Positions 6,683 through 64,000 of a stretch of DNA of 64,000 bases are shown piece after piece. Every line of letters begins with the position of its first letter. Within the stretch, counting starts at the first letter, position 1. Made by a program: the position numbers and the translations under genes. The notes under the pieces were generated by a model. That model ran no database searches, was not told where the DNA came from, and saw only the letters and a program-made list of their open reading frames with translations. Source of the DNA: Escherichia coli. GTDB lineage: Bacteria; Pseudomonadota; Gammaproteobacteria; Enterobacterales; Enterobacteriaceae. The stretch lies in assembly GCF_013315695.1 (NCBI RefSeq), contig NZ_CP054353.1; one strand, given 5' to 3'.

Positions 6683-6803
6683 GTGTTCTCCACAAAGGAA
6701 TGTAGTGGTAGTGTAGCGATGACTTTAGGCGATCAATATAAGATCGCCGGGCCACGCAAAGAACTGCACCTTCCGGTGCAAATGGGATGGTAAGGAGTTT
6801 ATT

Positions 6804-7289
6804 GTGAAAAAGTGGTTATTAGCGGCAGGTCTCGGTTTAGCACTGGCAACTTCTGCTCAGGCGGCTGACAAAATTGCAATCGTCAATATGGGCAGCCTGT
6901 TCCAGCAGGTAGCGCAGAAAACCGGTGTTTCTAACACGCTGGAAAATGAGTTCAAAGGCCGTGCCAGCGAACTGCAGCGTATGGAAACCGATCTGCAGGC
7001 TAAAATGAAAAAGCTGCAGTCCATGAAAGCGGGCAGCGATCGCACTAAGCTGGAAAAAGACGTGATGGCTCAGCGCCAGACTTTTGCTCAGAAAGCGCAG
7101 GCTTTTGAGCAGGATCGCGCTCGTCGTTCCAACGAAGAACGTGGCAAACTGGTTACTCGTATCCAGACTGCTGTGAAATCCGTTGCCAACAGCCAGGATA
7201 TCGATCTGGTTGTTGATGCAAACGCCGTTGCTTACAACAGCAGCGATGTAAAAGACATCACTGCTGACGTACTGAAACAGGTTAAATAA
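6804..7289 (+). CDS. skp: Periplasmic chaperone Skp
   Basis: 161-aa ORF with GTG start and signal peptide; lies between bamA and lpxD. Confidence 0.95.
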
Positions 7290-7292
7290 GTA

Positions 7293-8318
7293 ATGCCTTC
7301 AATTCGACTGGCTGATTTAGCGCAGCAGTTGGATGCAGAACTACACGGTGATGGCGATATCGTCATCACCGGCGTTGCGTCCATGCAATCTGCACAAACA
7401 GGTCACATTACGTTCATGGTTAACCCAAAATACCGTGAGCATTTAGGCTTGTGCCAGGCGTCCGCGGTTGTCATGACCCAGGACGATCTTCCTTTCGCGA
7501 AAAGTGCCGCGCTGGTAGTGAAGAATCCCTACCTGACTTACGCGCGCATGGCGCAAATTTTAGATACCACGCCGCAGCCCGCGCAGAACATTGCACCCAG
7601 TGCAGTGATTGACGCGACGGCGAAGCTGGGTAACAACGTCTCAATTGGCGCTAACGCGGTGATTGAGTCCGGCGTTGAACTGGGCGATAACGTGATTATC
7701 GGTGCCGGTTGCTTCGTAGGTAAAAACAGCAAAATCGGTGCAGGTTCGCGTCTCTGGGCGAACGTAACCATTTACCATGAGATCCAGATCGGTCAGAATT
7801 GCCTGATCCAGTCCGGAACAGTGGTAGGCGCAGACGGCTTTGGTTATGCCAACGATCGTGGTAACTGGGTGAAGATCCCGCAGATAGGTCGCGTAATTAT
7901 TGGCGATCGCGTGGAGATCGGCGCATGTACTACCATCGATCGCGGTGCGCTGGATGACACTGTTATTGGCAATGGTGTGATCATTGATAACCAGTGCCAG
8001 ATTGCACATAACGTCGTGATTGGCGACAATACGGCAGTTGCCGGTGGCGTCATTATGGCGGGCAGCCTGAAAATTGGTCGTTACTGCATGATCGGCGGAG
8101 CCAGCGTAATCAACGGGCATATGGAAATATGCGACAAAGTGACGGTTACGGGCATGGGTATGGTGATGCGTCCCATCACTGAACCAGGCGTCTATTCCTC
8201 AGGCATTCCGCTGCAACCCAACAAAGTCTGGCGCAAAACCGCTGCACTGGTGATGAACATTGATGACATGAGCAAGCGTCTGAAATCGCTTGAGCGCAAG
8301 GTTAATCAACAAGACTAA
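7293..8318 (+). CDS. lpxD: UDP-3-O-(3-hydroxymyristoyl)glucosamine N-acyltransferase
   Basis: 341-aa ORF with left-handed beta-helix hexapeptide repeats; synteny. Confidence 0.95.
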
Positions 8319-15937: not shown

Positions 15938-17363
15938 TAATGCCGATCAGTTAAGGATCAGTTGACCGATCCAGTGGCTGTGTAAGAATCCGGAAACGCT
16001 CACTTGTTTCCGGATTTTTTTATGCACATTGGACAGGCTCTTGATCTGGTATCCCGTTACGATTCTCTGCGTAACCCACTGACTTCTCTGGGGGATTACC
16101 TCGACCCCGAACTCATCTCTCGTTGCCTTGCCGAATCAGGTACTGTAACGCTACGCAAGCGCCGTCTTCCCCTCGAAATGATGGTCTGGTGTATTGTTGG
16201 CATGGCGCTTGAGCGTAAAGAACCTCTTCACCAGATTGTGAATCGCCTGGACATCATGCTGCCGGGCAATCGCCCCTTCGTTGCCCCCAGTGCCGTTATT
16301 CAGGCCCGCCAGCGCCTGGGAAGTGAGGCTGTCCGCCGCGTGTTCACGAAAACAGCGCAGCTCTGGCATAACGCCACGCCGCATCCGCACTGGTGCGGCC
16401 TGACCCTGCTGGCCATCGATGGTGTGTTCTGGCGCACACCGGATACACCAGAGAACGATGCAGCCTTCCCCCGCCAGACACATGCCGGGAACCCGGCGCT
16501 CTACCCGCAGGTCAAAATGGTCTGCCAGATGGAACTGACCAGCCATCTGCTGACGGCTGCAGCCTTCGGCACGATGAAGAACAGCGAAAATGAGCTTGCT
16601 GAGCAACTTATAGAACAAACCGGCGATAACACTCTGACGTTAATGGATAAAGGTTATTACTCACTGGGACTGTTAAATGCCTGGAGCCTGGCGGGAGAAC
16701 ACCGCCACTGGATGATACCTCTCAGAAAGGGAGCGCAATATGAAGAGATCAGAAAACTGGGTAAAGGCGATCATCTGGTGAAGCTGAAAACCAGCCCGCA
16801 GGCACGAAAAAAGTGGCCGGGACTGGGAAATGAAGTGACAGCCCGCCTGCTGACCGTGACGCGCAAAGGAAAAGTCTGCCATCTGCTGACGTCGATGACG
16901 GACGCCATGCGCTTCCCCGGAGGAGAAATGGCGGATCTGTACAGTCATCGCTGGGAAATCGAACTGGGATACAGGGAGATAAAACAGACGATGCAACTGA
17001 GCAGGCTGACGCTGAGAAGTAAAAAACCGGAGCTTGTGGAGCAAGAGCTGTGGGGTGTCTTACTGGCTTATAATCTGGTGAGATATCAGATGATTAAAAT
17101 GGCGGAACATCTGAAAGGTTACTGGCCGAATCAACTGAGTTTCTCAGAATCATGCGGAATGGTGATGAGAATGCTGATGACATTGCAGGGCGCTTCACCG
17201 GGACGTATACCGGAGCTGATGCGCGATCTTGCAAGTATGGGACAACTTGTGAAATTACCGACAAGAAGGGAAAGGGCCTTCCCGAGAGTGGTAAAGGAGA
17301 GGCCCTGGAAATACCCCACAGCCCCGAAAAAGAGCCAGTCAGTTGCTTAACTGACTGGCATTA
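15938..17363 (+). mobile_element. IS4 insertion sequence, complete copy (1426 bp)
   Basis: Terminal inverted repeats taatgccgatcagttaag (left) and cttaactgactggcatta (right; 16 of 18 match when reverse-complemented); a single transposase ORF; flanked by an 11-bp direct repeat. Confidence 0.9.
16022..17350 (+). CDS. insG: IS4 transposase (DDE family)
   Basis: 442 aa from the ATG at 16022 ([14 protein letters not shown]...), recognised as IS4-family transposase; the supplied ORF starts 6 codons upstream. Confidence 0.85.
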
Positions 17364-36515: not shown

Positions 36516-36592
36516 GGAGCGGTAGTTCAGTCGGTTAGAATACCTGCCTGTCACGCAGGGGGGCGCGGGTTCGAGTCCCGTCCGTTCCGCCA
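36516..36592 (+). tRNA. aspU: tRNA-Asp (anticodon GTC), rrn-distal; variant copy
   Basis: 77 nt ending CCA; identical to the copy at 45517..45593 except G at 36563 where the other copy has T. Confidence 0.95.
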
Positions 36593-37272: not shown

Positions 37273-37281
37273 CCATATTAC
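37273..37281. repeat. Left copy of the 9-bp target-site duplication flanking IS1 (ccatattac)
   Basis: Identical 9-mer directly before and after the IS1 termini. Confidence 0.9.
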
Positions 37282-37336
37282 GGTGATGCTGCCAACTTAC
37301 TGATTTAGTGTATGATGGTGTTTTTGAGGTGCTCCA

Positions 37337-37612
37337 GTGGCTTCTGTTTCTATCAGCTGTCCCTCCTGTTCAGCTACTGACGGGGTGGTGCGTAACGGCA
37401 AAAGCACCGCCGGACATCAGCGCTATCTCTGCTCTCACTGCCGTAAAACATGGCAACTGCAGTTCACTTACACCGCTTCTCAACCCGGTACGCACCAGAA
37501 AATCATTGATATGGCCATGAATGGCGTTGGATGCCGGGCAACAGCCCGCATTATGGGCGTTGGCCTCAACACGATTTTACGTCACTTAAAAAACTCAGGC
37601 CGCAGTCGGTAA
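37337..37612 (+). CDS. insA: IS1 InsA (transposition inhibitor; N-terminal part of InsAB' transposase)
   Basis: 91-aa ORF with zinc-finger cysteines (CPSC...CSHC). Confidence 0.92.
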
Positions 37613-38034
37613 CCTCGCGCATACAGCCGGGCAGTGACGTCATCGTCTGCGCGGAAATGGACGAACAGTGGGGCTATGTCGGGGCTAAATCGCGCCAGCG
37701 CTGGCTGTTTTACGCGTATGACAGGCTCCGGAAGACGGTTGTTGCGCACGTATTCGGTGAACGCACTATGGCGACGCTGGGGCGTCTTATGAGCCTGCTG
37801 TCACCCTTTGACGTGGTGATATGGATGACGGATGGCTGGCCGCTGTATGAATCCCGCCTGAAGGGAAAGCTGCACGTAATCAGCAAGCGATATACGCAGC
37901 GAATTGAGCGGCATAACCTGAATCTGAGGCAGCACCTGGCACGGCTGGGACGGAAGTCGCTGTCGTTCTCAAAATCGGTGGAGCTGCATGACAAAGTCAT
38001 CGGGCATTATCTGAACATAAAACACTATCAATAA
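37531..38034 (+). CDS. insB: IS1 InsB reading frame (expressed as InsAB' by -1 frameshift at the ttaaaaaac motif, 37588..37594)
   Basis: 167-aa ORF in the -1 frame relative to insA, overlapping its 3-prime end; slippery A6C sequence present. Confidence 0.88.
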
Positions 38035-38049
38035 GTTGGAGTCATTACC

Positions 38050-38058
38050 CCATATTAC
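38050..38058. repeat. Right copy of the 9-bp target-site duplication flanking IS1
   Basis: ccatattac repeated immediately after the IS1 right end. Confidence 0.9.
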
Positions 38059-43401: not shown

Positions 43402-44124
43402 ATGAAACCGGCAAGAGTCCCTCAAACTGTCGTGGCTCCTGATCGCTGGGGCGATTTGCCCTGGGGAGAGCTTTATCGCAAGGCGCTGGAGCGCCAGCTC
43501 AACCCGTGGTTCACTAAAATGTATGGTTTTCATCTGCTTAAGATTGGCAATTTAAGCGCAGAAATCAATTGCGAAGCGAGCGCGGTTTCTCATCAAGTGA
43601 ATGTTTCTGCGCAAGGACTGCCCGTCCAGGTGCAGGCGGACCCACTTCATCTTCCTTTTGCCGATAAATCCGTTGATGTTTGTCTACTGGCACATACATT
43701 GCCGTGGTGCACCGATCCGCATCGTTTATTGCGTGAAGCCGATCGGGTATTGATTGATGATGGCTGGCTGGTGATTAGTGGCTTCAATCCCATCAGTTTA
43801 ATGGGATTACGCAAACTTGTGCCGGTATTGCGCAAAACCTCGCCCTATAACAGCCGGATGTTTACTCTGATGCGGCAGCTGGACTGGCTCTCTTTGTTGA
43901 ATTTTGAAGTGCTACACGCCAGCCGTTTCCACGTTCTCCCGTGGAACAAACACGGTGGAAAACTATTGAATGCGCATATTCCTGCGCTTGGTTGCTTACA
44001 ACTTATTGTCGCCCGGAAACGGACTATTCCTTTAACGCTAAATCCGATGAAACAGAGTAAAAACAAGCCACGAATTCGCCAGGCGGTTGGAGCCACCCGG
44101 CAATGTCGTAAACCACAGGCTTAA
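43402..44124 (+). CDS. yafS: Methyltransferase-like protein YafS
   Basis: 240 aa from the internal Met; the supplied ORF starts 6 codons upstream. Confidence 0.82.
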
Positions 44125-44588
44125 ACTTCGACTTGATAGCCCGTATCTTCCAGTGTGGGATTCATCGCTGCGGCACGAGCCAGTTCATCGCAACGTTCGT
44201 TTTCTGGATGACCGGCATGGCCTTTAACCCATTCCCATTTGATTTGATGCTGCCCCAGCGCAGCATCAAGACGTTGCCAGAGATCGACATTTTTTACTGG
44301 TTTTTTGTCTGCTGTTTTCCAGCCACGTTTTTTCCAGTTATGGATCCACTGGGTGATACCCTGGCGGACATACTGGCTGTCGGTACTCAAAATGACTTCG
44401 CAATGTTCTTTTAACGCCTCCAGCGCGACAATAGCGGCCATCAACTCCATACGGTTGTTGGTGGTGCGGGTGTAGCCTGCGCTAAAGGTTTTCTCGCGTC
44501 CGCGATAGCGTAAAATAGCGCCGTAACCCCCAGGTCCAGGATTACCCAGACACGAACCATCGGTGAAAATTTCTACCTGTTTAAGCAT
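44121..44588 (-). CDS. rnhA: Ribonuclease HI
   Basis: 155 aa from [23 protein letters not shown]; the supplied ORF carries a 24-codon upstream extension. Confidence 0.95.
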
Positions 44589-44652
44589 CTCTGGTAGACT
44601 TCCTGTAATTGAATCGAACTGTAAAACGACAAGTCTGACATAAATGACCGCT

Positions 44653-45384
44653 ATGAGCACTGCAATTACACGCCAGATCGTTCTCGATACCGAAACTACC
44701 GGTATGAACCAGATTGGTGCGCACTATGAAGGCCACAAGATCATTGAGATTGGTGCCGTTGAAGTGGTGAACCGTCGCCTGACGGGCAATAACTTCCATG
44801 TTTATCTCAAACCCGATCGGCTGGTGGATCCGGAAGCCTTTGGCGTACATGGTATTGCCGATGAATTTTTGCTCGATAAGCCCACGTTTGCAGAGGTAGC
44901 CGATGAGTTCATGGACTATATCCGCGGCGCGGAGCTGGTGATCCATAACGCAGCGTTCGATATCGGCTTTATGGACTACGAGTTTTCGTTGCTTAAGCGC
45001 GATATTCCGAAGACCAATACCTTCTGTAAGGTCACCGATAGCCTTGCGGTGGCGAGGAAAATGTTTCCCGGTAAGCGCAACAGCCTCGATGCGTTATGTG
45101 CCCGCTACGAAATAGATAACAGTAAACGAACGTTGCACGGGGCATTACTCGATGCCCAGATCCTTGCGGAAGTTTATCTGGCGATGACTGGTGGTCAAAC
45201 GTCGATGGCTTTTGCGATGGAAGGAGAGACACAACAGCAACAAGGTGAAACAACAATTCAGCGCATTGTGCGTCAGGCAAGTAAGTTACGCGTTGTTTTT
45301 GCGACAGATGAAGAGCTTGCGGCACATGAAGCCCGTCTCGATCTGGTGCAGAAGAAAGGCGGAAGCTGCCTCTGGCGGGCATAA
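44653..45384 (+). CDS. dnaQ: DNA polymerase III epsilon subunit (3-prime to 5-prime proofreading exonuclease)
   Basis: 243 aa from [17 protein letters not shown]; divergent from rnhA. Confidence 0.95.
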
Positions 45385-45516
45385 ATACCTGTAAAAGGCG
45401 CTAAAAATAGCGACTTGGGCGATTTTTGCAGCAAACGATTCAAAAGATGAGAAAAACCGTTGACGAAGGGTGAGGCAATCCGTAATATTCGCCTCGTTCC
45501 CAACGGAACACAACGC

Positions 45517-45593
45517 GGAGCGGTAGTTCAGTCGGTTAGAATACCTGCCTGTCACGCAGGGGGTCGCGGGTTCGAGTCCCGTCCGTTCCGCCA
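45517..45593 (+). tRNA. aspV: tRNA-Asp (anticodon GTC)
   Basis: ggagcggtagttcagtcggttagaatacctgcctgtcacgcagggggtcgcgggttcgagtcccgtccgttccgcca. Confidence 0.97.
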
Positions 45594-45600
45594 ATATTCA

Positions 45601-45640
45601 GAAAGCCCGAATCATTACTGATTCGGGCTTTCGTCGTTTA
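45601..45640 (+). terminator. Hairpin downstream of aspV, probable terminator
   Basis: gaaagcccgaatca / tgattcgggctttc stem with ttac loop; weak T-run. Confidence 0.6.
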
Positions 45641-45691
45641 AGTTCCAGAGAAAAATAGCCACGAAACTTATCTCGTAGCCATATTCACCCT

Positions 45692-46471
45692 CTAACGAAA
45701 TGTGAATTCATCCGCATCCCGCCATGCCGGAAACTTTTCTCTATACTCCCGCAACGCCACCATCGACAGCTCCGCATCAATGCGCGTTGCCTGATGCGCG
45801 TCGGCAGTAGCGATAATCTCGCCCTGTGGATTAATCACCCTGCTGTCACCACGATAATGGCAGCCGTTGCCATCGCTGCCGACGCGATTGCATCCCGCCA
45901 CATACGCCTGATTCTCAATCGCGCGGGCTGTCAGCAATGCCTGCCAGTGCAGAGAGCGCGGAGCAGGCCAGTTGGCGACGTACAGGGCGAGGTCATAATC
46001 GTTGAGATTGCGCGACCACACCGGAAAACGTAAGTCGTAGCACACCAGCGGCAAAATACGCCAGCCGCGCCATTCCACAATTACTCGCGCATTGCCCGCT
46101 TTATAATGCAGATGCTCATCTGCCATTCGGAACAGATGACGCTTATCATAAAAATGTACCGTGCCGCCCGGCTCAACCAGCAAAAAGCGGTTAACCGAAC
46201 CAGACTCCGTTTGTAATGCAACACTGCCTGCAATCAGCGCATTGCACCGCTGCGCTTTGGCTGTCATCCAGTTCACTACGTCATTTTGTGCTAGCGACGA
46301 AGCTGCCGCTTCCATGGCAAAGCCGCTGGTAAACATCTCCGGCAGAACGATCACATCGCGCCCGGTAATACCTTCCAGTTGACGATCAAAATGGCGCAGG
46401 TTGGCAGGGCCATCCATCCACACCAGTGGTTGCTGCAAAAGCGTAATCTTCAAACCAGGCACGGTGTACAA
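45692..46471 (-). CDS. yafV: Carbon-nitrogen hydrolase (omega-amidase) family protein
   Basis: 259-aa ORF, nitrilase-superfamily fold; synteny with ivy-fadE. Confidence 0.88.
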   Translation of the reverse strand: MYTVPGLKITLLQQPLVWMDGPANLRHFDRQLEGITGRDVIVLPEMFTSGFAMEAAASSLAQNDVVNWMTAKAQRCNALIAGSVALQTESGSVNRFLLVEPGGTVHFYDKRHLFRMADEHLHYKAGNARVIVEWRGWRILPLVCYDLRFPVWSRNLNDYDLALYVANWPAPRSLHWQALLTARAIENQAYVAGCNRVGSDGNGCHYRGDSRVINPQGEIIATADAHQATRIDAELSMVALREYREKFPAWRDADEFTFR

Positions 46472-54326: not shown

Positions 54327-54436
54327 TGATGCCGGATGCGCTTACGCTTATCCAGCCTACGAATCGTGCCTTAACAGTAGGACGGATAAGGCGTTTACGC
54401 CGCATCCGGCAGTTGTGCACCGGTGCCGGATACCTA
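54327..54436. repeat. REP/BIME palindromic elements
   Basis: tgccggatgcgcttacgcttatccagcctac ... gtaggacggataaggcgtttacgccgcatccggc. Confidence 0.8.
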
Positions 54437-56527
54437 CATCAACGCCCCCATAATCTTCAACTCCAGCTCGTCCGGCACTTCGTTATACGACAGCACATGC
54501 AGCCCCGGTGCAAACAATCTCGCATAGCGCGCCAGCAAAGGGCGCAACTGCGGTGGCACCAGCAGCACAGGGTCTTTCCCCGCCGCTTTCATCTGCTCCT
54601 TCACCTGCGGCATCGTGTTCTGGAACTGGTTAAGCATATTCGGGTCCACCGGCACGCTGTCGAGCATCACTTTGCCGCCCTGTTGCGCCTGATTCACTAC
54701 GTTGGTCAGCAGATTTTCCAGCTCATTATTCAGCGTATACACCGTCAGCTCCTGTTTGCGAACGAACGGATGGGTAATGCTGCGCCGCAGCGCCAGGCGC
54801 ACATCGGCCGCCAGCAGAATATGATCTTTAGTCACCGCACTACTGGCGACCAGCACGGTGGCGATGGTGACGATATCGCGCAGGGAAACGCCTTCGGTCA
54901 GCAGCGTCCGGTACACTTTCAGCAACTGGCTGTAGTTGAGCGCCGCGCTCAAATCTTCCGCCAGGCGCGGTGCCATCGACGACAGGCGGTTATGCAACTG
55001 CGTGATGTCATCATAGTTAAATAATTCAGGAATATAGCTGCGCACAATCTTATTCACATGGGTGGCAATCACGCTGGCGCTGTCGATCACCTGATACCCC
55101 ATATTCAGCGCCTTCGCTTTCTGCGCAGGCTGGATCCAGGTGACCGGCATCCCATATGCCGGGTCATTCCCCAGTACGCCGTCAATCTCGCCGTAGGTTT
55201 CGCTGGAGGGCAACGCCATCAGTTTATCTGCCGGAATATCCGCTTCATCGGCCTTAATGCCGTTGATGAATATGGCGTACTGGCTGGGCTTGAGGCGGAA
55301 GTTTTCCCGAATACGGATCTCCGGCAGCAGCACGCCGTTGCCGTCGGAAATCACCTGCCGCACGCCGCGAATCCGCTGGGTGAGCGGGTTACCTTGGGCT
55401 TTATCGACCAGCGCCACCAGCTTGTAGCCGAGACTTAAGCTGATAGGCTCGATCAGCGGAATGGTTTCCCAACTGACCTGTTGCTCGCTGGTTTCGGTGA
55501 TGGTGCGGGTCAGTGTTTCGAGGCTTTTCTCTTCCGCCTCCGCCGCCTGCGGGCGTTTGCTCATCCGCCAGCCGGTAAAGCCAAGCAGGGCGCTGAACAG
55601 CAAAAATGGCAGATGCGGCATCCCCGGCACCACCGCCAGCACAAACATGATCCCGGTGGCGGTGTAGAGCACCGACGGGCTTGCCAGCAGCTGGTGGCGC
55701 ACGTCATGGGCGATATCGCCGTTGTCGCTGACGCGGGTGACGATAATTGCCGCCGCGGTGGAGAGCAGCAGGGACGGGATCTGCGCCACCAGGCCGTCGC
55801 CGATGGTCATCAGCACATATTGCTGGAAGGCGGCGTCGGCGCTCAGGTTGTATTTGAAGATGCCGATACAGACGCCGCCGATCAGGTTGATCGCCAGAAT
55901 CATCATCCCGGCGATGGCATCGCCGCGCACAAACTTCGATGCCCCGTCCATCGCGCCGTAGAAATCGGCCTCGCTGGCAACATCTTTACGCCGTGTTTGC
56001 GCCTGCGCCTGGTTGATCAATCCGGCGTTAAGATCGGCGTCAATCGCCATCTGCTTGCCGGGCATCGCGTCCAGGGTAAAGCGGGCAGAAACCTCGGAAA
56101 TACGCTCGGCCCCTTTGGTGACGACGATAAAGTTGATGATCATCAGGATGATAAACACCACAAAGCCGACGACAAAGTTGCCGCCAATCACCACCTGACC
56201 AAATGACTCAATCACCTTACCCGCCGCGCCTGCGCCGAGATGCCCGTGCAGCAGCACCACGCGCGTAGAAGCAACGTTAAGCGTCAGGCGCATTAAAGTG
56301 GTGATCAGCAAAATGGTCGGGAACAGGCTGAATTCCAGCGGTCGTTTCGCCGACACCGCCACCAGCAGCACCATCACCGCCAGCACAATGTTGAAGGTGA
56401 ACAGAATATCCAGCAGCGCAGGCGGCAGCGGCAGAATAACCATCGCCAGAATACAAAGTATAACCAGCGGTACGCCGAGATTACCGCCGCGCAGCAGCGC
56501 GAGGAACGATTTAGTTGTTTTCGCCAT
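54434..56527 (-). CDS. lfhA: Flagellar-type export apparatus protein, FlhA homologue (second flagellar system)
   Basis: 697-aa ORF with N-terminal polytopic membrane domain and FlhA-like cytoplasmic domain; intact. Confidence 0.85.
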   Translation of the reverse strand: MAKTTKSFLALLRGGNLGVPLVILCILAMVILPLPPALLDILFTFNIVLAVMVLLVAVSAKRPLEFSLFPTILLITTLMRLTLNVASTRVVLLHGHLGAGAAGKVIESFGQVVIGGNFVVGFVVFIILMIINFIVVTKGAERISEVSARFTLDAMPGKQMAIDADLNAGLINQAQAQTRRKDVASEADFYGAMDGASKFVRGDAIAGMMILAINLIGGVCIGIFKYNLSADAAFQQYVLMTIGDGLVAQIPSLLLSTAAAIIVTRVSDNGDIAHDVRHQLLASPSVLYTATGIMFVLAVVPGMPHLPFLLFSALLGFTGWRMSKRPQAAEAEEKSLETLTRTITETSEQQVSWETIPLIEPISLSLGYKLVALVDKAQGNPLTQRIRGVRQVISDGNGVLLPEIRIRENFRLKPSQYAIFINGIKADEADIPADKLMALPSSETYGEIDGVLGNDPAYGMPVTWIQPAQKAKALNMGYQVIDSASVIATHVNKIVRSYIPELFNYDDITQLHNRLSSMAPRLAEDLSAALNYSQLLKVYRTLLTEGVSLRDIVTIATVLVASSAVTKDHILLAADVRLALRRSITHPFVRKQELTVYTLNNELENLLTNVVNQAQQGGKVMLDSVPVDPNMLNQFQNTMPQVKEQMKAAGKDPVLLVPPQLRPLLARYARLFAPGLHVLSYNEVPDELELKIMGALM

Positions 56528-57650
56528 CCAGTTTAAGCACCTCTTTGGGAATGGAAATATGTCTGTTCAGGGCCGGGCGCGGCTGTGCGCCCTCGCGCCA
56601 GTGTTTCATTTGCAGGACGTAGGTCAGAACGTGGGCGATAGCCCGGTAAAGCTGAAACGGAATTTGTTGGTTCACCTGCGTGGTGTAGTAAACCGAGCGC
56701 GCCAGCCGCGGGAACTCGACCACTTCCACCTGATTCTCAGCGGCGACCTGGCGAATATAGAGGGCGATTTCATCGGTGCCTTTTGCCACCACAAACGGCG
56801 CGGCGGCGCGAGACTGGTCATACTGCAACGCCACGGCGTAGTGGGTCGGGTTGGTGATCACCACGTTGGCTTTCGGCACCACTTTGCGGATTTGCCCCAT
56901 CGCCAGCTGCCGTTGCAGCCGTCGCACGCGCGCCTTCACTTCCGGCTTGCCTTCCTGATTTTTGTACTCTTCTTTCAGCTCCTGCTTGGTCATCTTCAGC
57001 CCTTTGGTAAACAGGGCTTTCGCCAGCGGCACGTCGATAAGCGCAAAGAAGATAAACAGGATGACAAAGTTGCGCATCACGCTGGCGTAGAGCGACAAAC
57101 CCTCATTCATCGCCAGTTTGAACGGCAGCGCTTGCAGGCCGAGGAAGGCGGCAAAGTTATTGCGCAGGCTAATCCACAGCATCACCAGCACCACCACCGA
57201 CTTCGCCGTCATCTTTCCCGTTTCCGCCAGATGTTCACTGGAAAACAGCCGCCCAATCCCTTTTAACGGGCTAATTTTGCTGAAATCCGGGAGGATTTTT
57301 TTCGGCAGAAACAGCCAGCCGCCAGGCACCAGCGAGGAGAGCAGCGCAGCGGCGGGCATCGGCAGCAAGGTAAGAATAAACTTGCCGAGAATTAACAGGT
57401 GATGGCGCAGAAACTGGCCGATCACATCCGGGTTATTAATCTCCTGCGCGTACTGATGCACGCTGATAAAACTCTCACGCACAAAATCGGCATACCACGG
57501 GAAGCTGCTGGAGATCACCACAAACGCCGCAAACAGGCTCGCCGCCAGCCCCATATCCTTCGAGCGCGGCAGTTGCCCCTCTTCACGCGCTTTACGCAGC
57601 TTTTGCGCCGAGGGTTTCTCTGTTTTTTCTTCGCTGCTGCTATCCGCCAT
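56511..57650 (-). CDS. lfhB: Flagellar-type export apparatus protein, FlhB homologue
   Basis: 379-aa ORF with an FlhB-like N-terminus (MADSSSEEKTEKPSAQKLRKAREEGQ...). Confidence 0.85.
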   Translation of the reverse strand: MADSSSEEKTEKPSAQKLRKAREEGQLPRSKDMGLAASLFAAFVVISSSFPWYADFVRESFISVHQYAQEINNPDVIGQFLRHHLLILGKFILTLLPMPAAALLSSLVPGGWLFLPKKILPDFSKISPLKGIGRLFSSEHLAETGKMTAKSVVVLVMLWISLRNNFAAFLGLQALPFKLAMNEGLSLYASVMRNFVILFIFFALIDVPLAKALFTKGLKMTKQELKEEYKNQEGKPEVKARVRRLQRQLAMGQIRKVVPKANVVITNPTHYAVALQYDQSRAAAPFVVAKGTDEIALYIRQVAAENQVEVVEFPRLARSVYYTTQVNQQIPFQLYRAIAHVLTYVLQMKHWREGAQPRPALNRHISIPKEVLKLDGENN

Positions 57651-58422
57651 AGTGACCTTTCAGCGCGTCGAGTTGCTGCAACACAAAATTCGCCAGATGC
57701 AGATAGTGATCCGGCAGGTTGTAGAGCAGGGTGGCGAAGCAAACCAGCCCCGCCAGCATGTTGATGGGAAAGCCGAGCGAAAAAAGGTTCAGCGGCGGCG
57801 CAATGCGGTTAAGCAGGCCAAAGCAGCCCTGCACAATCAGCATGATAAAAGTGGTCGGCAGCGCCAGCAGTGATGCGGACGCCAGCACCCAGCTAAAGGC
57901 CAGCGCGATGGTGCGCAGGGGTTGCGGATGCAGCGCGTTGCCAATCGGCCAGTAGGTGAAGCCCTTATACAGCACGCTTACCAGCAGCAGATGCCCGTCC
58001 ATGGCAAAAAACAGCAGGATCGCGTAGACGTTAATTAACTCTGCCAGCACGGTTGTTGATGCGCCGCTGCTCGGGGCGTTCATCACCGCCATGCTCATCC
58101 CCATATTGAACGAGAGAATTTGCCCGGCCAGTTGCAGCGCCAGAAACAGAAACTGAAACATCAGCCCGAACAACATGCCCCATAATATTTGCTCCACCGT
58201 CAGGATCAGGCTATTGAGCGATAGCAGGTCGTGGGGAATGGGATGGGGGATCAACGGCGTGATGATGATCGCCAGCGCCAGCGACAATATAATCCGCACG
58301 CGCACGGTCAGGGCGCTGTTATCCAGCACCGGCACATAGCGCAGAAACGCCATAATGCGCACGAAGGGGAACCACAGCCCCAGCACCAGATCCATCAGTT
58401 GCGTAACGTCGCTTGTGCGCAT
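57640..58422 (-). CDS. lfiR: Flagellar-type export apparatus protein, FliR homologue
   Basis: About 260-aa polytopic membrane ORF from the internal Met; the supplied ORF extends to 58473. Confidence 0.8.
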   Translation of the reverse strand: MRTSDVTQLMDLVLGLWFPFVRIMAFLRYVPVLDNSALTVRVRIILSLALAIIITPLIPHPIPHDLLSLNSLILTVEQILWGMLFGLMFQFLFLALQLAGQILSFNMGMSMAVMNAPSSGASTTVLAELINVYAILLFFAMDGHLLLVSVLYKGFTYWPIGNALHPQPLRTIALAFSWVLASASLLALPTTFIMLIVQGCFGLLNRIAPPLNLFSLGFPINMLAGLVCFATLLYNLPDHYLHLANFVLQQLDALKGHYGG

Positions 58423-58423
58423 C

Positions 58424-58696
58424 TTAATGCACCAGCAGGGCGGCCTGACTAAACAGATGAATGCAGAGATCATGCAACTGGATAATCATCCATTTGCCGC
58501 ACACCCCCAGCACCACCAGCGTGACAATCAGCCTTGGCAAAAAGCTCAGGGTCTGTTCGTTAATCTGCGTCACCGCCTGGAACACGCTCACCAGCAGGCC
58601 GACCAGCAGGCTTGGCACCACCAGTACCGAAACCAGCAAAATCACTACTTTAATGCCGCTGGCGACAATGTCGGCGGCTACGTCTACGGTCAACAT
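58424..58696 (-). CDS. lfiQ: Flagellar-type export apparatus protein, FliQ homologue
   Basis: 90-aa two-helix membrane ORF. Confidence 0.82.
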   Translation of the reverse strand: MLTVDVAADIVASGIKVVILLVSVLVVPSLLVGLLVSVFQAVTQINEQTLSFLPRLIVTLVVLGVCGKWMIIQLHDLCIHLFSQAALLVH

Positions 58697-58698
58697 AA

Positions 58699-59451
58699 TC
58701 AGCCCAGCCCCAGCCCGCGAATGCTGGTGGTGAGCGTGCCGATGGTCAGCGACCAGCCGTCAATCAGCACAAACAGCATCAGTTTAAAGGGCAGCGAAAC
58801 AATCAGCGGCGACAGCATCATCATCCCCATCGCCATCAGTACGCTGGCGACAATCAGGTCGATAACCAGAAACGGGATGTAAATCATAAAGCCAATCTGG
58901 AAAGCGGTTTTCAGCTCGCTCAGTACATAGGCGGGCACCACGATGGAGAGATCCTGGTCGGCGGCATTGCCCTTCGCGCCGCCGATGGTCATGATTTGCG
59001 CCATCGCTTTTTTGTCGGTCTGCGCCAGCATAAAGCGTTTTAGCGGCGTCGCGGCGGTGCTTAACGCATCGGTCAGGGTAATCTGATCGTTTTCAAACGG
59101 CACTACCGCGTGGTCGTAAATATTGAGCCAGATGGGGCGCATTACCAGCAGGGTGAGTGAGAGCGCAATACCTATCAGAATGCGGTTCGGCGGCGTTTGT
59201 TGCAGCCCCAGCGCCTGGCGCAGCAGCGACAGCACGATAATAAAGCGCGTAAAGCAGGTCATCATCAGCACCATCGTCGGCAGCAAACCGACGAGGGTCA
59301 TCAGAATCAGTACCTGAATTTTGACGCTGTACTCCTGAGTGTTGCCGTGGGTCACCACGTTAAGTAGCGCAATATCGCCACCCTGGGCCAACGCCAGCGG
59401 CGCAAGCGCCAGCAGCCCAAGGCCCAGCGCCAGTTGAGTGCGGCGTTTCAT
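58699..59451 (-). CDS. lfiP: Flagellar-type export apparatus protein, FliP homologue
   Basis: 250-aa ORF with signal peptide and conserved FliP C-terminal region. Confidence 0.85.
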   Translation of the reverse strand: MKRRTQLALGLGLLALAPLALAQGGDIALLNVVTHGNTQEYSVKIQVLILMTLVGLLPTMVLMMTCFTRFIIVLSLLRQALGLQQTPPNRILIGIALSLTLLVMRPIWLNIYDHAVVPFENDQITLTDALSTAATPLKRFMLAQTDKKAMAQIMTIGGAKGNAADQDLSIVVPAYVLSELKTAFQIGFMIYIPFLVIDLIVASVLMAMGMMMLSPLIVSLPFKLMLFVLIDGWSLTIGTLTTSIRGLGLG

Positions 59452-59819
59452 GGTGCCAGGTCGTTGATATCGCGGGTGTTAAACTCCAGCACGCGCAGGC
59501 CGTACTTCTCGTTGACCACCACCACTTCCGCTTTGCCCAGCAGGATATTGTTCACTTTAATATCCAGCGGCTCCCCGGCGAGTTTATCCAGCTCAATCAC
59601 CGTGTCGTCGTCGATGTTAAGCAGGTCGGCTAACATAATTTCCACCGACGACACTTCCAGCGTTAAGGTCACCGGAATGCGTTTCAGCAGCGTCATCGAG
59701 TCGGAAAAGCGGTCTTCCAGGCGGGTGACCAGCGTTTCGGCGTCGGCGGATTTCGTGACAGGCGCAACTTCATCGGCGAGGCCAAAATCCCCGGCTAAAA
59801 TATCGTCTTGTTTACTCAT
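59448..59819 (-). CDS. lfiN: Flagellar switch protein, FliN homologue
   Basis: About 124 aa from the internal Met, with C-terminal SpoA-like domain; the supplied ORF extends to 59879 and would overlap lfiM by 68 bp. Confidence 0.78.
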   Translation of the reverse strand: MSKQDDILAGDFGLADEVAPVTKSADAETLVTRLEDRFSDSMTLLKRIPVTLTLEVSSVEIMLADLLNIDDDTVIELDKLAGEPLDIKVNNILLGKAEVVVVNEKYGLRVLEFNTRDINDLAP

Positions 59820-60663
59820 GGCTATTCTCATTCTTGCCCGCCAGCTCCGACAAAAACAGTTTGTCTTTGTCTTCCACAATCAGGGCGCTAAATAATTCAG
59901 ATTGCCCAATCGCCACCGGGAACGTTTCTCCCAGCGAGATGGGTAAAATATCCCCGGCTTTTATCTGCGCCAGATCGGCGACATTCATCGATAGCTCGGC
60001 GATTTTGACGTTCAGGGTCAGCGGCAGGGAGCGGATGATTTCTTTAATCAGGGCCGGTTTATTAACGGATTTCGCCACCTGCTGCGGTTTACTGTGCTCG
60101 CTGTGGCGGATCAGATTCAAAATAAAATCGGTGTGGGCGTCGTCGAGCAAAATACGAAAACTGCTCTCTTCATCGCCCGCAAGGGTAAAGGTTAATTGAT
60201 ACGCCCAGTGGGTAATCACCGTGCTGCTGTCCAGTTTTAATTTCAGCGCAATACCGGAGGTTTGCAGATTAAAGATCAGCGTGCAGATATCCAGCGCGAG
60301 TCGGTTCTTTAACCGCGTTTCGGTTTTGGTCGGCAGCCCGTTATGCGCTTTCGCCTCTTCAAGAGAGGACTCCAGACCATAAAAATTGCCCAGCAGCATT
60401 AACAGCAAGGAGCGATCAATATCAAACGCCAGATGCCCGACCTGGGAAACCATCAGTTCGGCGTTTTTATTAATAATATCCATTTCGCAGCCAATCTTTT
60501 TTAGGGTGATATTGCTGCGATGCTTTTTGAGAAAGTAGCTGCCAAGATGCGAATCAATCACGTCAAAATTCCCCGTAAACAGGGTCGGCAGGCGATGGTA
60601 GGGGCGTCCGAGCCGATTACCTTCTAATTTAAAGATGCCTGGCGTTTTACTGTACTTCAGCAT
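59812..60663 (-). CDS. lfiM: Flagellar switch protein, FliM homologue
   Basis: 283-aa ORF at the head of the minus-strand lfiMNPQR-lfhBA block. Confidence 0.75.
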   Translation of the reverse strand: MLKYSKTPGIFKLEGNRLGRPYHRLPTLFTGNFDVIDSHLGSYFLKKHRSNITLKKIGCEMDIINKNAELMVSQVGHLAFDIDRSLLLMLLGNFYGLESSLEEAKAHNGLPTKTETRLKNRLALDICTLIFNLQTSGIALKLKLDSSTVITHWAYQLTFTLAGDEESSFRILLDDAHTDFILNLIRHSEHSKPQQVAKSVNKPALIKEIIRSLPLTLNVKIAELSMNVADLAQIKAGDILPISLGETFPVAIGQSELFSALIVEDKDKLFLSELAGKNENSHE

Positions 60664-60842
60664 GGCTTACTTTCTCTGCTGTAATGGTATGGGCGTTGTT
60701 GTGCACGCAAATCCGGCAGTGACACAAGGTGAGGTATTAAATAGAGGGGGCGTGAAAGGGGCAAATTATTAATAGGGTGAAAAAATAATTAAATTATTAA
60801 AGGGCGAGGTATCGGGCATCGTCATAAAACATTGCACGAATT

Positions 60843-60925
60843 GTAGGCCTGATAAGAGGCGCAGCGTCGCATCAGGCATCGGTGCACAATTGCCGGATGG
60901 CGGCGTAAACGCCTTATCCGGCCTA
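60843..60925. repeat. REP/BIME palindromic elements in the lfiM-lafK divergent intergenic region
   Basis: gtaggcctgataagaggcgcagcgtcgcatcaggc and gccggatggcggcgtaaacgccttatccggcctac. Confidence 0.8.
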
Positions 60926-61050
60926 CGGTTCTAACTCATTGTTTATCAACAAATAATATTTTTATTATCGTTTAATTCGAACTTGTTAATCCCGCCGGTG
61001 ATACGCTTCAGAACATCCTGTTTTCTGTCGCTACTTATATCGTTCACCCT

Positions 61051-62037
61051 ATGTCTGAACTTATTGCAACTGCCGCTTCCAGCATTAACGCTTTTACTCT
61101 GGCAAAGCGTGTCGCCGCCTTTAACGTGCCGGTGCTCATTCAGGGCGAAACCGGCGCGGGCAAAGAATGCGTGGCGAAATATATTCACACCGTAGCCTTT
61201 GGTGAAAATGAAAGCGCACCCTATGTCGGCGTGAACTGCGCGGCGATCCCGGAAAATATGCTGGAATCCACGCTATTTGGCTATGACAAAGGCGCATTTA
61301 CCGGCGCAATTGCCAGCGTGCCAGGAAAAATGGAACTGGCAAATAACGGCTCCTTATTGCTCGATGAAATTGGTGAAATGCCGCTGGCGCTACAGGCCAA
61401 AATATTACGCGTGTTGCAGGAACAACAGGTTGAGCGATTAGGCAGCAACCGACAAATCAAACTCAATTTTCGCCTGATTGCCTGCACCAATAAAAACCTG
61501 GAGCAGGAAGTTGCCGCCGGACGTTTTCGTGAAGATCTCTATTATCGTCTGGCGGTTATCCCTATTACCATGCCGCCACTGCGTGAACGCCTGAACGATA
61601 TTATTCCGCTGGCGGAGTCATTTATTAAAAAATACTCCACGGTGCTGGTGAAAAATATCACCCTGTCCGAATCCACCCGCCGTGCGCTGCTTAATTACCG
61701 CTGGCCCGGTAACGTGCGCCAACTGGAAAACGCCATTCAGCGGGGAATGATTTTAAATCGCGACGGCGTAATTTACCCGGATGCATTAGGCCTGCTGGAA
61801 ACGGACGTTGCTGACCACAGCGAACTGCAATGGCCTGTTCAGCCCGCCGTCCACATTGCCGAAACCAGCGATTTGGGCCAGCACGGACGAAGCGCGCAAT
61901 ATCAATATATCGCCGACCTGATGCGTAAATATCAGGGCAACCGCAGCAAAATCGCCGACCTGTTAGGCATTACCCCGCGCGCACTGCGCTATCGACTGGC
62001 CTCCATGCGCAAGCAAGGTATCGAAGTTTTCTCCTGA
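61051..62037 (+). CDS. lafK: Sigma54-dependent transcriptional activator (AAA+ and HTH domains only)
   Basis: 328-aa ORF; Walker A GETGAGKE at about residue 32, GAFTGA sigma54-contact motif, C-terminal HTH; no receiver or other N-terminal domain. Confidence 0.8.
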   Translation: MSELIATAASSINAFTLAKRVAAFNVPVLIQGETGAGKECVAKYIHTVAFGENESAPYVGVNCAAIPENMLESTLFGYDKGAFTGAIASVPGKMELANNGSLLLDEIGEMPLALQAKILRVLQEQQVERLGSNRQIKLNFRLIACTNKNLEQEVAAGRFREDLYYRLAVIPITMPPLRERLNDIIPLAESFIKKYSTVLVKNITLSESTRRALLNYRWPGNVRQLENAIQRGMILNRDGVIYPDALGLLETDVADHSELQWPVQPAVHIAETSDLGQHGRSAQYQYIADLMRKYQGNRSKIADLLGITPRALRYRLASMRKQGIEVFS

Positions 62038-62051
62038 CCCGGAAGTTAAAA

Positions 62052-62393
62052 ATGAGCATTACCACAATCAACAGCACCATGCAGGCGCAAATCATGCAGG
62101 ACGTGCAGCGGATGCAGGCCAACGCCCAGGCACCGGTGCTGCCCGCCATGACCTTCAGTTCCACCGACCCGGACGTTTCGTTTAACCGCATTATGAGCGG
62201 TGCGCTCGGTCATGTTGACCAGTTCCAGCAGGTGGCGGAGCAGCAGCAAACGGCTGTCGACACGGGCAAAAGTGATGACCTTGCCGGGGCGATGATCGCC
62301 AGCCAGCAGGCGTCGCTCTCTTTCTCCGCGCTGGTGCAGGTGCGCAACAAAATCGCCACCGGATTTAACGATCTGATGAGTATGTCGATCTAA
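62052..62393 (+). CDS. lfiE: Flagellar hook-basal body protein, FliE homologue
   Basis: 113-aa ORF with conserved FliE C-terminus (...VQVRNKIATGFNDLMSMSI). Confidence 0.8.
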   Translation: MSITTINSTMQAQIMQDVQRMQANAQAPVLPAMTFSSTDPDVSFNRIMSGALGHVDQFQQVAEQQQTAVDTGKSDDLAGAMIASQQASLSFSALVQVRNKIATGFNDLMSMSI

Positions 62394-62397
62394 CCCT

Positions 62398-64000
62398 ATG
62401 AATGCACAAATAAAGAAGTTAACCCAGGCGTTTCCGGCGTTTCGACTGCGTCTTGCAGATAACAAACGCTGGGCATTGATGGCGGGAGTGGGGCTTGCCG
62501 TTGCGGCGACGGCGATTATCGTCAGCGTACTGTGGACCGGTAATCGCGGCTACGTCTCGCTCTACGGACGCCAGGAAAATCTGCCCGTGTCGCAGATTGT
62601 CACCGTGCTGGATGGCGAAAAGCTCAGCTACCGCATCGACCCGCAAAGCGGGCAGATTCTGGTGCCGGAAGATGAACTGTCGAAAACGCGCATGACCCTT
62701 GCTGCCAAAGGCGTGCAGGCGATCTTGCCCAGCGGCTACGAGCTGATGGACAAAGACGAAGTGCTCGGCAGCAGCCAGTTCGTGCAGAACGTGCGCTACA
62801 AACGCAGCCTCGAAGGGGAGCTGGCGCAGAGCATTATGTCGCTGGACGCGGTGGAGAGCGCGCGGGTGCATCTGGCGCTCAACGAAGAGAGCTCGTTTGT
62901 GGTCAGCGATGAGCCGCAAAACAGCGCCTCGGTGGTGGTGCGTCTGCATTACGGCGCGAAGCTGAATATGGACCAGGTGAACGCCATTGTGCATCTGGTT
63001 TCCGGCAGCATTCCGGGGCTGCACGCCAGCAAAGTTAGCGTCGTCGATCAGGCGGGAAATCTGCTGACCGACGGCATTGGCGCGGGCGAAGCGGTTTCAG
63101 CCGCTACCCGTAAACGCGATCAGATCCTCAAAGATATTCAGGACAAAACCCGCGCCAGCGTGGCGAACGTGCTGGATTCGCTGGTCGGCAGCGGGAATTA
63201 CCGCGTCAGCGTCATGCCGGATCTCGACCTCAGTAATATCGATGAAACTCAGGAACACTACGGCGACGCGCCGAAAATCAACCGCGAAGAAAACGTGCTG
63301 GACAGCGATACCAATCAGGTGGCGATGGGTGTGCCCGGTTCGCTTAGCAACCGCCCGCCGGTTGCACCTAATCAGGTTACTAACGGCGCGATGCCCGCCG
63401 ACGAAAATCGCTCGCCGGAAGCCCTTTCGAAACACAGCGAAAGCAAGCGCGATTACTCTTACGACCGCAGCGTCCAGCATATTCAGCATCCCAGCTTTAC
63501 GGTGAAACGCCTCAACGTGGCGGTGGTGCTCAATCAAAACGCTCCGGCGCTGAAAAACTGGAAGCCGGAGCAGACCACGCAGCTTACCGCGCTGCTGAAC
63601 AATGCCGCCGGGATCGACGCGCAACGTGGAGACAATCTCACCTTATCGCTGCTTAACTTTGTCCCGCAGGCGGTGCCGGTCGAACCAATTATTCCGTTGT
63701 GGAAAGATGACAGCGTGCTGGCCTGGGTGCGGCTGATTGGCTGCGGCCTGCTGGCGCTGTTGTTGCTGTTCTTTGTGGTGCGCCCGGTAATGAAACGACT
63801 GACGGCGGTACGTGCGCCGGTTATCACACCAGAACCGGAAGCTGTCAGCGAACCGTGGATTGCCATGCCGGAAGAGGAACGCAAAAACGTCGATCTGCCG
63901 TCGCTGCCCGGCGATGACAGCCTGCCGTCCCAGAGTTCCGGCCTCGAAGTAAAACTCGAGTTCCTGCAAAAACTGGCCATGAGCGACACCGATCGCGTAG
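62398..64000 (+). CDS. lfiF: Flagellar MS-ring protein, FliF homologue (3-prime end cut by window edge)
   Basis: Open frame from the ATG at 62398 to the window end (over 530 codons) with N-terminal and late transmembrane segments typical of FliF; absent from the supplied ORF track, presumably because no stop codon lies inside the window. Confidence 0.8.
   Translation, partial: MNAQIKKLTQAFPAFRLRLADNKRWALMAGVGLAVAATAIIVSVLWTGNRGYVSLYGRQENLPVSQIVTVLDGEKLSYRIDPQSGQILVPEDELSKTRMTLAAKGVQAILPSGYELMDKDEVLGSSQFVQNVRYKRSLEGELAQSIMSLDAVESARVHLALNEESSFVVSDEPQNSASVVVRLHYGAKLNMDQVNAIVHLVSGSIPGLHASKVSVVDQAGNLLTDGIGAGEAVSAATRKRDQILKDIQDKTRASVANVLDSLVGSGNYRVSVMPDLDLSNIDETQEHYGDAPKINREENVLDSDTNQVAMGVPGSLSNRPPVAPNQVTNGAMPADENRSPEALSKHSESKRDYSYDRSVQHIQHPSFTVKRLNVAVVLNQNAPALKNWKPEQTTQLTALLNNAAGIDAQRGDNLTLSLLNFVPQAVPVEPIIPLWKDDSVLAWVRLIGCGLLALLLLFFVVRPVMKRLTAVRAPVITPEPEAVSEPWIAMPEEERKNVDLPSLPGDDSLPSQSSGLEVKLEFLQKLAMSDTDRV

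What the first reader, a model, noticed from the sequence alone, without database searches (positions are those of the whole stretch)
45517..45700. No island at the aspV tRNA: yafV follows the tRNA after about 100 bp
tRNA-Asp (aspV) ends at 45593 and the yafV stop codon is at 45692, with only a hairpin in between. To my recollection K-12 has several small genes (yafT, ykfM, yafU, yafF) here, and other strains carry large islands at this tRNA. This window therefore shows the unoccupied form of a known integration hotspot, while insertion sequences and Flag-2 mark the strain as otherwise accessory-rich nearby.
Basis: partly seen in the sequence, partly recalled or inferred. Interest (0 to 1): 0.35.

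Follow-up and report, generated by a model that had tools for sequence, protein, structure and literature searches.

The report
Empty aspV tRNA island site
In this E. coli strain the aspV tRNA gene sits directly next to its old neighbour yafV, with no genomic island between them; this is the original, unoccupied state of a well-known island hotspot, is shared by about 14% of complete E. coli genomes, and is already known in the literature.

Summary
tRNA-Asp(GTC) lies at 45517-45593 (+) and yafV at 45692-46462 (-), 98 bp apart.

- **Spacer content.** It holds two convergent hairpins, not one. One is the aspV terminator-like hairpin (45601-45632). The other is the yafV terminator (45682-45655, minus strand).
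- **K-12 and other strains.** K-12 has 2,417 bp here (yafT, ykfM, yafU', yafF'), a remnant of the roughly 37-kb type VI secretion (T6SS)/Rhs/ISAs1 island seen in O157 Sakai. CFT073 carries its roughly 100-kb island here.
- **Frequency.** Of 5,426 complete E. coli genomes, 756 (13.9%) have this empty form, including E2348/69, ST131 and SMS-3-5.
- **Ancestry.** The same compact dnaQ-aspV/yafV layout, with the same aspV hairpin and three covarying pairs, occurs in at least 10 other enterobacterial genera. It also occurs in a non-coli Escherichia lineage. The 72 nt at 45633-45704 are found only in the empty genomes, so a deletion in an occupied genome could not produce this form.
- **Integration site.** No tRNA 3'-end repeat is present. 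The 20-nt core used by an integrase-bearing island in strain PapRG-06-5 is intact here.

It is already known and of low interest.

The parts
45460..45488 (+). Promoter-like site for aspV (TTGACG, 17 nt spacer, TAATAT)
   Evidence: This is a consensus scan only. It lies 28 nt upstream of the tRNA. Function is inferred.
45517..45593 (+). aspV, tRNA-Asp (GTC), intact
   Evidence: ARAGORN and Rfam RF00005 at 67.7 bits. The sequence is identical to K-12 aspV.
45580..45599 (+). Intact attachment-site core (CGTCCGTTCCGCCA + ATATTC) used by CP4-like integrase islands at aspV
   Evidence: In strain PapRG-06-5 a roughly 45-kb integrase-bearing island is flanked by the full tRNA and by a second copy of this sequence. 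The repeat is 14 nt perfect plus 6 nt with one mismatch. The window has only the tRNA copies themselves.
45601..45632 (+). aspV terminator-like hairpin (14-bp stem, 4-nt loop), followed by CGTCGTTT
   Evidence: Fold. It is conserved after aspV in 13 sequences from other Enterobacteriaceae and in a T6SS-bearing E. coli. 99.5% of cells are paired and 3 pairs covary, against 0 covarying pairs in the slid controls. The U-tract is weak, so terminator function is inferred.
45644..45682 (-). yafV rho-independent terminator (12-pair stem 45682-45655, tail TTTTTCTCTGG)
   Evidence: Terminator scan and fold. The homologous hairpin is present in the non-coli Escherichia locus L006.
45692..46462 (-). yafV (2-oxoglutaramate amidase), intact, with C-terminus ...DADEFTFR
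   Evidence: ORF and RefSeq annotation of the identical sequence. Occupied genomes end ...DADEFRLW, because homology breaks inside the last four codons.
45601..45704 (.). The 104 bp of ancestral sequence replaced in K-12-type genomes. The sub-segment 45633-45704 (72 nt) is found only in empty-site genomes.
   Evidence: Breakpoints. The 72 nt match exactly 756 of 5,426 genomes and nothing else, even with sensitive blastn. The 108-nt query matches 842 genomes, of which 86 carry only the hairpin.

Best explanation
Window 45517-45700 is the ancestral, unoccupied allele of the aspV/yafV hotspot: two convergent transcription units, each with its own terminator hairpin, and nothing else.

In other E. 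coli two kinds of element fill this site.
1. A type VI secretion/Rhs/ISAs1 island without flanking repeats. It replaces 65 to 104 bp of the spacer and the last four codons of yafV. K-12's yafT...yafF is a remnant of it.
2. CP4-like islands carrying a tyrosine integrase. They insert site-specifically into the 3' end of aspV and duplicate a 14-20-nt core.

This strain has neither. It keeps an intact tRNA, an intact attachment core and the original yafV 3' end.

Shown: the anatomy, the junctions, the population frequencies and the outgroup conservation. Inferred: that the hairpins terminate transcription, and that the lineage kept the allele by descent rather than regaining it by recombination.
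For: **Anatomy.**

**Ancestral state.**
- dnaQ-aspV-yafV, with a spacer of about 50-220 bp between aspV and yafV, occurs in Leclercia, Pseudocitrobacter, Klebsiella oxytoca, Pseudescherichia, Trabulsiella, Kluyvera, Siccibacter, Enterobacter sp. and others.
- The aspV hairpin is conserved there with compensatory changes.
- A non-coli Escherichia lineage (L006, 94% nucleotide identity over 12.4 kb) is colinear with the window straight through the spacer, including both hairpins.

**Not a deletion scar.** The 72 nt at 45633-45704 exist in exactly the 756 empty genomes and nowhere else in 5,426 genomes.

**Population classes.** Four searches, not checked for overlap, found these classes. They sum to 5,413 of 5,426.

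| Class | Genomes |
|---|---|
| Empty | 756 |
| yafT-type left junction | 4,283 |
| CFT073-type left junction | 288 |
| Hairpin kept, followed by T6SS sequence | 86 |

**Occupied forms.**
- K-12, Sakai, CFT073, CFSAN064036 and E. albertii all share one right junction at 45704|45705.
- No tRNA-derived repeat flanks the T6SS island in K-12, Sakai or CFSAN064036.
- An integrase island with a 14+6-nt repeat is seen in PapRG-06-5.

**Literature.** PMC7545054, PMC2941450, PMC5363993, PMC2808357, PMC2907695.
Against: - The aspV hairpin is followed by only a weak U-tract (CGTCGTTT) and did not meet the terminator scan's T-run rule. It could serve 3'-end processing or stability rather than termination.
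- Vertical retention is not proven. In yafV the empty B2 strains (EC958, E2348/69) are about 4% from the occupied B2 strain CFT073, although the left flanks differ by only 0.5-0.95%. Recombination therefore has reshuffled this site.
- Allele states were not mapped on a genome-wide tree.
Confidence: 0.9

Rival explanations
1. The lineage once carried an island and regained the empty allele by homologous recombination with DNA from an empty-site donor, with crossovers in the dnaQ side and the yafV/ivy/fadE side. The sequence would be ancestral in type but not inherited vertically.
For: - Phylogroup-discordant divergence to the right of the site. CFT073 versus EC958 differ by 0.48% on the left flank but 3.96% in yafV.
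- E. albertii shares the occupied right junction with E. coli, while the closer non-coli Escherichia lineage L006 is empty. Either both alleles are old or they have been exchanged.
Against: - No recombination breakpoints were identified in the window.
- Among the strains compared, the window is closest to SMS-3-5, also empty, on both flanks (0.95% and 1.6-1.9%). That fits simple descent.
- This rival does not change what the sequence is.
Confidence: 0.2
2. The empty site is a scar left by deletion or excision of an island in this lineage.
For: Islands at this site do decay. K-12 keeps 2.4 kb and CFSAN064036 about 5 kb of a T6SS island. Integrase islands can excise precisely.
Against: - All T6SS-occupied forms examined lack 45640-45704, and most also lack the hairpin. 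No deletion in them could recreate this sequence.
- The spacer is colinear with an outgroup Escherichia lineage.
- No partial tRNA repeat and no foreign residue is present.
- Precise excision of a CP4-like island from an otherwise empty site cannot be excluded, but it would leave no trace and amounts to the same state.
Confidence: 0.04
3. Assembly artefact: an island was collapsed or lost in the assembly.
For: None.
Against: The same 401-bp junction is contiguous in 756 independent complete genomes. The 24-kb surrounding sequence is 100% identical in three separate complete assemblies.
Confidence: 0.01

Closest known systems
aspV locus of EPEC E2348/69, of ST131 strains (EC958, JJ1887) and of SMS-3-5
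   Same: The same contiguous aspV-98 bp-yafV arrangement. The 108-bp spacer query matches at 99-100% identity. The LF82 genome paper already scores E2348/69 as having 0 ORFs of the aspV island (PMC2941450).
   Different: Only single-nucleotide differences in the spacer. The yafV coding sequence differs by up to 3.7% from the B2 empty strains.
K-12 MG1655 aspV-yafT-ykfM-yafU'-yafF'-yafV
   Same: The same flanking genes and an identical tRNA.
   Different: 2,417 bp replace the 104 bp at 45601-45704. The aspV hairpin is replaced by an island-borne one. The yafV terminator is lost and the last three residues of YafV differ. In Sakai yafT is the left end of the T6SS island, and ISAs1-family elements (yafF is a fragment of one) lie at its right end.
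T6SS island at aspV (EHEC OI-7 / LF82 PAI I / EAEC 042 Ec042-0210-0226) and Salmonella SPI-6/SPI-20
   Same: The same chromosomal slot between aspV and yafV (PMC5363993, PMC2941450, PMC2808357). Salmonella T6SS islands also sit at aspV, and SPI-20 has no obvious direct repeats (PMC2907695).
   Different: The window has none of these genes. It represents the target before insertion.
PAI-CFT073-aspV and related CP4-like integrase islands
   Same: They use the 3' end of the same tRNA. Their repeat core CGTCCGTTCCGCCA(C/A)TATTC is present once, intact, in the window at 45580-45599.
   Different: There is no integrase, no second core copy and no island in the window.

Membership tests
Unoccupied tRNA-linked island integration site (attB) | Intact tRNA gene | tested here: met
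   ARAGORN and Rfam. Identical to K-12 aspV.
Unoccupied tRNA-linked island integration site (attB) | The conserved core genes on both sides are directly adjacent, with no integrase, transposase or cargo gene between them | tested here: met
   The spacer is 98 bp. It contains no credible ORF and no Rfam family apart from the adjacent tRNA.
Unoccupied tRNA-linked island integration site (attB) | The orthologous site is occupied by islands in other strains | tested here: met
   K-12, Sakai, CFT073, CFSAN064036, PapRG-06-5 and E. albertii. About 86% of 5,426 genomes are occupied.
Unoccupied tRNA-linked island integration site (attB) | A single copy of the attachment core, with no direct repeat of the tRNA 3' end downstream | tested here: met
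   The 25-mer and 15-mer of the tRNA 3' end, allowing 2-3 mismatches, match only aspU and aspV themselves in 64 kb. The duplicated core is seen in the occupied strain PapRG-06-5.
Unoccupied tRNA-linked island integration site (attB) | The arrangement matches the outgroup (ancestral) state rather than a deletion product | tested here: met
   At least 10 other genera and a non-coli Escherichia lineage share it. The 72-nt segment is absent from all occupied genomes.
Unoccupied tRNA-linked island integration site (attB) | The site is competent for integrase-mediated insertion | not testable with these tools
   This needs an integration assay. Only the sequence identity of the core is shown.
Rho-independent terminator (aspV hairpin 45601-45632) | A stable GC-containing stem-loop conserved at the RNA level | tested here: met
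   A 14-bp stem. 99.5% of cells are paired across 15 sequences, with 3 covarying pairs.
Rho-independent terminator (aspV hairpin 45601-45632) | A U-rich tract immediately 3' of the stem | tested here: inconclusive
   The tail is CGTCGTTT(A/T), with only 3-4 T after a 5-nt gap. It was not reported by the terminator scan.
Rho-independent terminator (yafV hairpin 45682-45655, minus strand) | A stem-loop plus T-run directly after the stop codon | tested here: met
   The scan hit has 12 pairs and the tail TTTTTCTCTGG. Fold.

The most novel reading that the evidence does not exclude
The empty and occupied alleles at aspV/yafV may be an old presence/absence polymorphism that spans species boundaries in Escherichia.
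- E. albertii and every occupied E. coli examined share one identical right junction.
- A non-coli Escherichia lineage and 14% of E. coli share the empty allele.
- The flanks show phylogroup-discordant divergence.

This would mean the T6SS island entered once, long ago, and both states have since moved by homologous recombination.

A linked possibility concerns the left junction of the yafT-type island. It lies 7 nt past the tRNA, within one base of the boundary of the CP4-like attachment core (6 nt past the tRNA). The left end of the 'integrase-less' T6SS island may therefore be a relic of an integrase-mediated event.
Probability: 0.35. Interest if true: 0.3.

Novelty: already known. Interest (0 to 1): 0.12.

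Why it matters
It matters little beyond annotation. The window gives a clean reference for the ancestral aspV/yafV junction. That allows island boundaries in other strains to be set to the base:
- 45599|45600 for CP4-like integrase islands
- 45600|45601 for yafT-type T6SS islands
- 45639|45640 for T6SS islands that keep the aspV hairpin
- 45704|45705 on the yafV side for all of them

It also shows that K-12's yafT...yafF genes are island debris, and that occupied strains carry a YafV with an altered C-terminus and no native terminator. That aspV is a hotspot, and that some strains lack an island there, is already published.

Tried and rejected
1. **An 11-nt match.** CGGGCTTTCGT occurs both in the aspV hairpin and next to yafV in occupied genomes, which looked like possible microhomology. 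The same sequence is the normal right end of other ISAs1/ISEc1 copies elsewhere (for example Sakai L087 33779), so the match is coincidental.
2. **aspU as a source.** I checked whether the K-12-type sequence after aspV came from the aspU downstream region. It did not; aspU is followed by the rrnH terminator.
3. **Hidden RNA genes in the spacer.** Rfam gave only sub-threshold Thr_leader hits (about 20 bits against a gathering score of 55) to the palindromic hairpin on both strands. I treat these as chance.
4. **T6SS genes next to yafV in other genera.** Only E. albertii had them within 6 kb. Other genera lacking an adjacent tRNA were not characterised.
5. **A single recently spread 'empty haplotype'.** This was not supported. 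In yafV, empty strains fall into at least two groups about 3.7% apart.
6. **Literature search for aspV with yafV.** It returned nothing.
7. **Phylogroup of the window strain.** Not determined.

Full report
**What is in the sequence**

ARAGORN finds tRNA-Asp (GTC) at 45517-45593 on the + strand, and Rfam's tRNA model matches at 67.7 bits. The sequence is identical to K-12 aspV. On the minus strand an intact reading frame ends with a stop codon at 45692-45694. RefSeq annotates the same sequence in strains MSI001 and AF3 as yafV, 2-oxoglutaramate amidase, 771 nt. Upstream lie gloB, yafS, rnhA and dnaQ. Downstream lie ivy and fadE.

The gap is 98 bp and holds two hairpins, not one.
- The first is a perfect 14-bp stem with a 4-nt loop at 45601-45632, seven bases after the tRNA.
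- The second is a 12-pair stem at 45682-45655 on the minus strand, followed by TTTTTCTCTGG. It lies directly after the yafV stop and was reported by the terminator scan.

The spacer therefore reads as two convergent genes, each with its own terminator-type hairpin. A promoter-like TTGACG-17-TAATAT sits 28 nt before the tRNA.

**Comparison with K-12 and other E. coli**

Homology with the window stops at 45600 and resumes at 45705, so 2,417 bp in K-12 stand in place of 104 bp here. The right break lies inside the last four codons of yafV: the window encodes ...DADEFTFR and K-12 encodes ...DADEFRLW.

O157 Sakai has a roughly 37-kb block in the same slot, in the order yafT, a full type VI secretion cluster, VgrG, Rhs and two ISAs1-family elements. 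yafT is therefore the left end of that island, and yafF is a fragment of an ISAs1-family element like those at its right end. Together with the shared junction sequences on both sides, this makes the K-12 genes debris of the island. CFT073 has its roughly 100-kb PAI here but keeps the same ISAs1 remnant beside yafV (PMC7545054).

**Counts in 5,426 complete E. coli genomes**

The four classes come from separate searches that were not checked for overlap. They sum to 5,413 of 5,426.

| Class | Genomes | Share |
|---|---|---|
| Contiguous empty form | 756 | 13.9% |
| yafT-type sequence right after aspV | 4,283 | 78.9% |
| CFT073-type left junction (DUF4942 gene next to aspV) | 288 | 5.3% |
| Hairpin kept but not the rest of the spacer | 86 | 1.6% |

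- The empty class includes E2348/69, ST131 strains (EC958, JJ1887) and SMS-3-5.
- Within the yafT-type class, the K-12 subtype accounts for 2,860 genomes.
- The 86 hairpin-only genomes are the 842 that match the 108-nt spacer query minus the 756 empty ones.

**Which state is ancestral**

A scan of one genome per species with YafV returned loci from many Enterobacterales. tRNA-Asp lies convergent to yafV, about 50-220 bp from its stop, with dnaQ just beyond, in these taxa:
- Leclercia
- Pseudocitrobacter
- Klebsiella oxytoca
- Pseudescherichia vulneris
- 'Escherichia sp. ESNIH1'
- Trabulsiella
- Kluyvera
- Siccibacter
- two Enterobacter-like genomes

The hairpin after aspV is conserved in all of them. 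Across 15 sequences 99.5% of cells pair and three pairs change on both sides, including the window's own CCCG/CGGG against the outgroup CCTG/CAGG. The slid controls show no such changes.

Locus L006 is labelled E. coli but is only 94% identical to the window over 12.4 kb, against 96-98.4% for true E. coli. It aligns with the window in a single block straight through the spacer and has both hairpins. The compact arrangement is therefore ancestral.

**Not a deletion scar**

The 72 nt at 45633-45704 match exactly the 756 empty genomes and nothing else, even with word-11 blastn. Every occupied genome examined lacks them, so deletion in an occupied genome cannot produce this sequence.

**Junction anatomy**

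K-12, Sakai, CFT073, CFSAN064036 and E. albertii all share one right junction...cccactcacNNcaacctaaac(t/c)|CATCCGCATCC, at window 45704|45705. In K-12, CFT073, CFSAN064036 and E. albertii it lies about 47 nt beyond an ISAs1/ISEc1 right end. In Sakai the nearest annotated IS ends about 100 nt before yafV.

The left junctions differ.
- **yafT-type islands** diverge at 45600|45601 and bring a different hairpin.
- **CFT073-type islands** diverge at 45599|45600.
- **The hairpin-retaining class** keeps the ancestral hairpin and diverges at 45639|45640 into the 3' end of a T6SS tssA/impA gene.

No copy of the tRNA 3' end flanks the T6SS island in K-12, Sakai or CFSAN064036. [quoted passage not shown]

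Strain PapRG-06-5 is different. In aspV orientation it carries:
1. the full aspV;
2. a roughly 45-kb CP4-like island (DUF4942, CbtA/YeeU and so on, ending in a tyrosine integrase);
3. a second copy of CGTCCGTTCCGCCA followed by ATATTC;
4. the ancestral hairpin;
5. a complete T6SS cluster.

That is a textbook integrase insertion with a 14+6-nt repeat. The window holds that core once, intact, at 45580-45599. The tRNA 3'-end 25-mer and 15-mer match only aspU and aspV in the whole window.

**How it works**

The region is simply the native end of two transcription units. Its interest is as a target. Integrase islands recombine with the 3' end of aspV. The T6SS/Rhs island occupies the segment between the aspV hairpin region and the yafV 3' end, by a route that left no repeats. 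Termination by the two hairpins is inferred, and the aspV hairpin has only a weak U-tract.

**Descent or re-acquisition**

This remains open. The left flanks follow phylogroup: CFT073, EC958 and E2348/69 differ by 0.5-0.95%. In yafV, however, the empty B2 strains are about 4% from occupied CFT073. The empty strains themselves fall into at least two groups about 3.7% apart. Recombination has clearly acted at this site.

**Known or new**

This is known.
- aspV is listed among the most-used tRNA hotspots (PMC7545054).
- T6SS islands at aspV are described for EHEC, EAEC, ExPEC/AIEC and Salmonella (PMC5363993, PMC2808357, PMC2941450, PMC2907695).
- The LF82 paper tabulates E2348/69 with 0 and MG1655 with 3 of the island's ORFs (PMC2941450).

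What this check adds is base-level junctions, the frequency of 13.9%, and the demonstration that the empty form is ancestral.

**Verdict**

Novelty is 'already known' and interest is low.

Noticed in passing
window 37281-38050: An IS1A copy interrupts dkgB. Relative to strain MSI001 the window has about 770 extra bp, with a 9-bp overlap of the flanking alignments consistent with the IS1 target duplication.
   Followed up: partly
window about 16005-17351: An IS4 transposase gene lies between accA and ldcC. The coordinates were converted from the annotation of the identical strain MSB1_4I.
   Followed up: no
window about 54434-64000: An intact Flag-2 (lateral flagella) cluster begins after rayT: flhA, flhB, fliR, fliQ, fliP, fliN/M, a sigma-54 activator, fliE and fliF. 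K-12, MSI001, CFT073 and Sakai have only a truncated flhA plus lafU/mbhA.
   Followed up: partly
window 45705-46462 (yafV) versus 44121-45593: yafV is unusually divergent within E. coli (2-4% between strains) and discordant with phylogroup. CFT073 versus EC958 differ by 0.48% left of aspV but 3.96% in yafV.
   Followed up: partly
window 45594-45600; L001 1509-1515; L086 12632-12637: The left junction of the integrase-less yafT/T6SS island (7 nt past the tRNA) lies within one base of the attachment-core boundary of CP4-like integrase islands (6 nt past the tRNA). This hints that the yafT end may derive from an old integrase event.
   Followed up: no
L092 1-20053 and L093 1-25604 (strain PapRG-06-5): This strain has double occupancy: a roughly 45-kb CP4-like island with its integrase at the far end, then a 20-nt repeat of the aspV 3' end plus the ancestral hairpin, then a complete T6SS cluster carrying Tae4/Tai4 and TagJ/TagK.
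   Followed up: yes
window 36516-36592 (aspU) versus 45517-45593 (aspV): The two tRNA-Asp copies differ at one base (aspU ...CAGGGGGGCGCGGG, aspV ...CAGGGGGTCGCGGG). In CFSAN064036 the variant is on the other copy, which suggests gene conversion between tRNA-Asp genes.
   Followed up: no
L007 6606-12756 (E. albertii NBRC 107761): E. albertii has an ISAs1 remnant, a 1,424-aa Rhs protein and VgrG next to yafV, with the same right-junction sequence as occupied E. coli.
   Followed up: partly
L012 and L015 (Citrobacter youngae, Citrobacter sp. Cu233), about 6770-7460: In these Citrobacter genomes a roughly 600-bp insert with one small gene and its own hairpin lies between the conserved aspV hairpin and yafV.
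   Followed up: no
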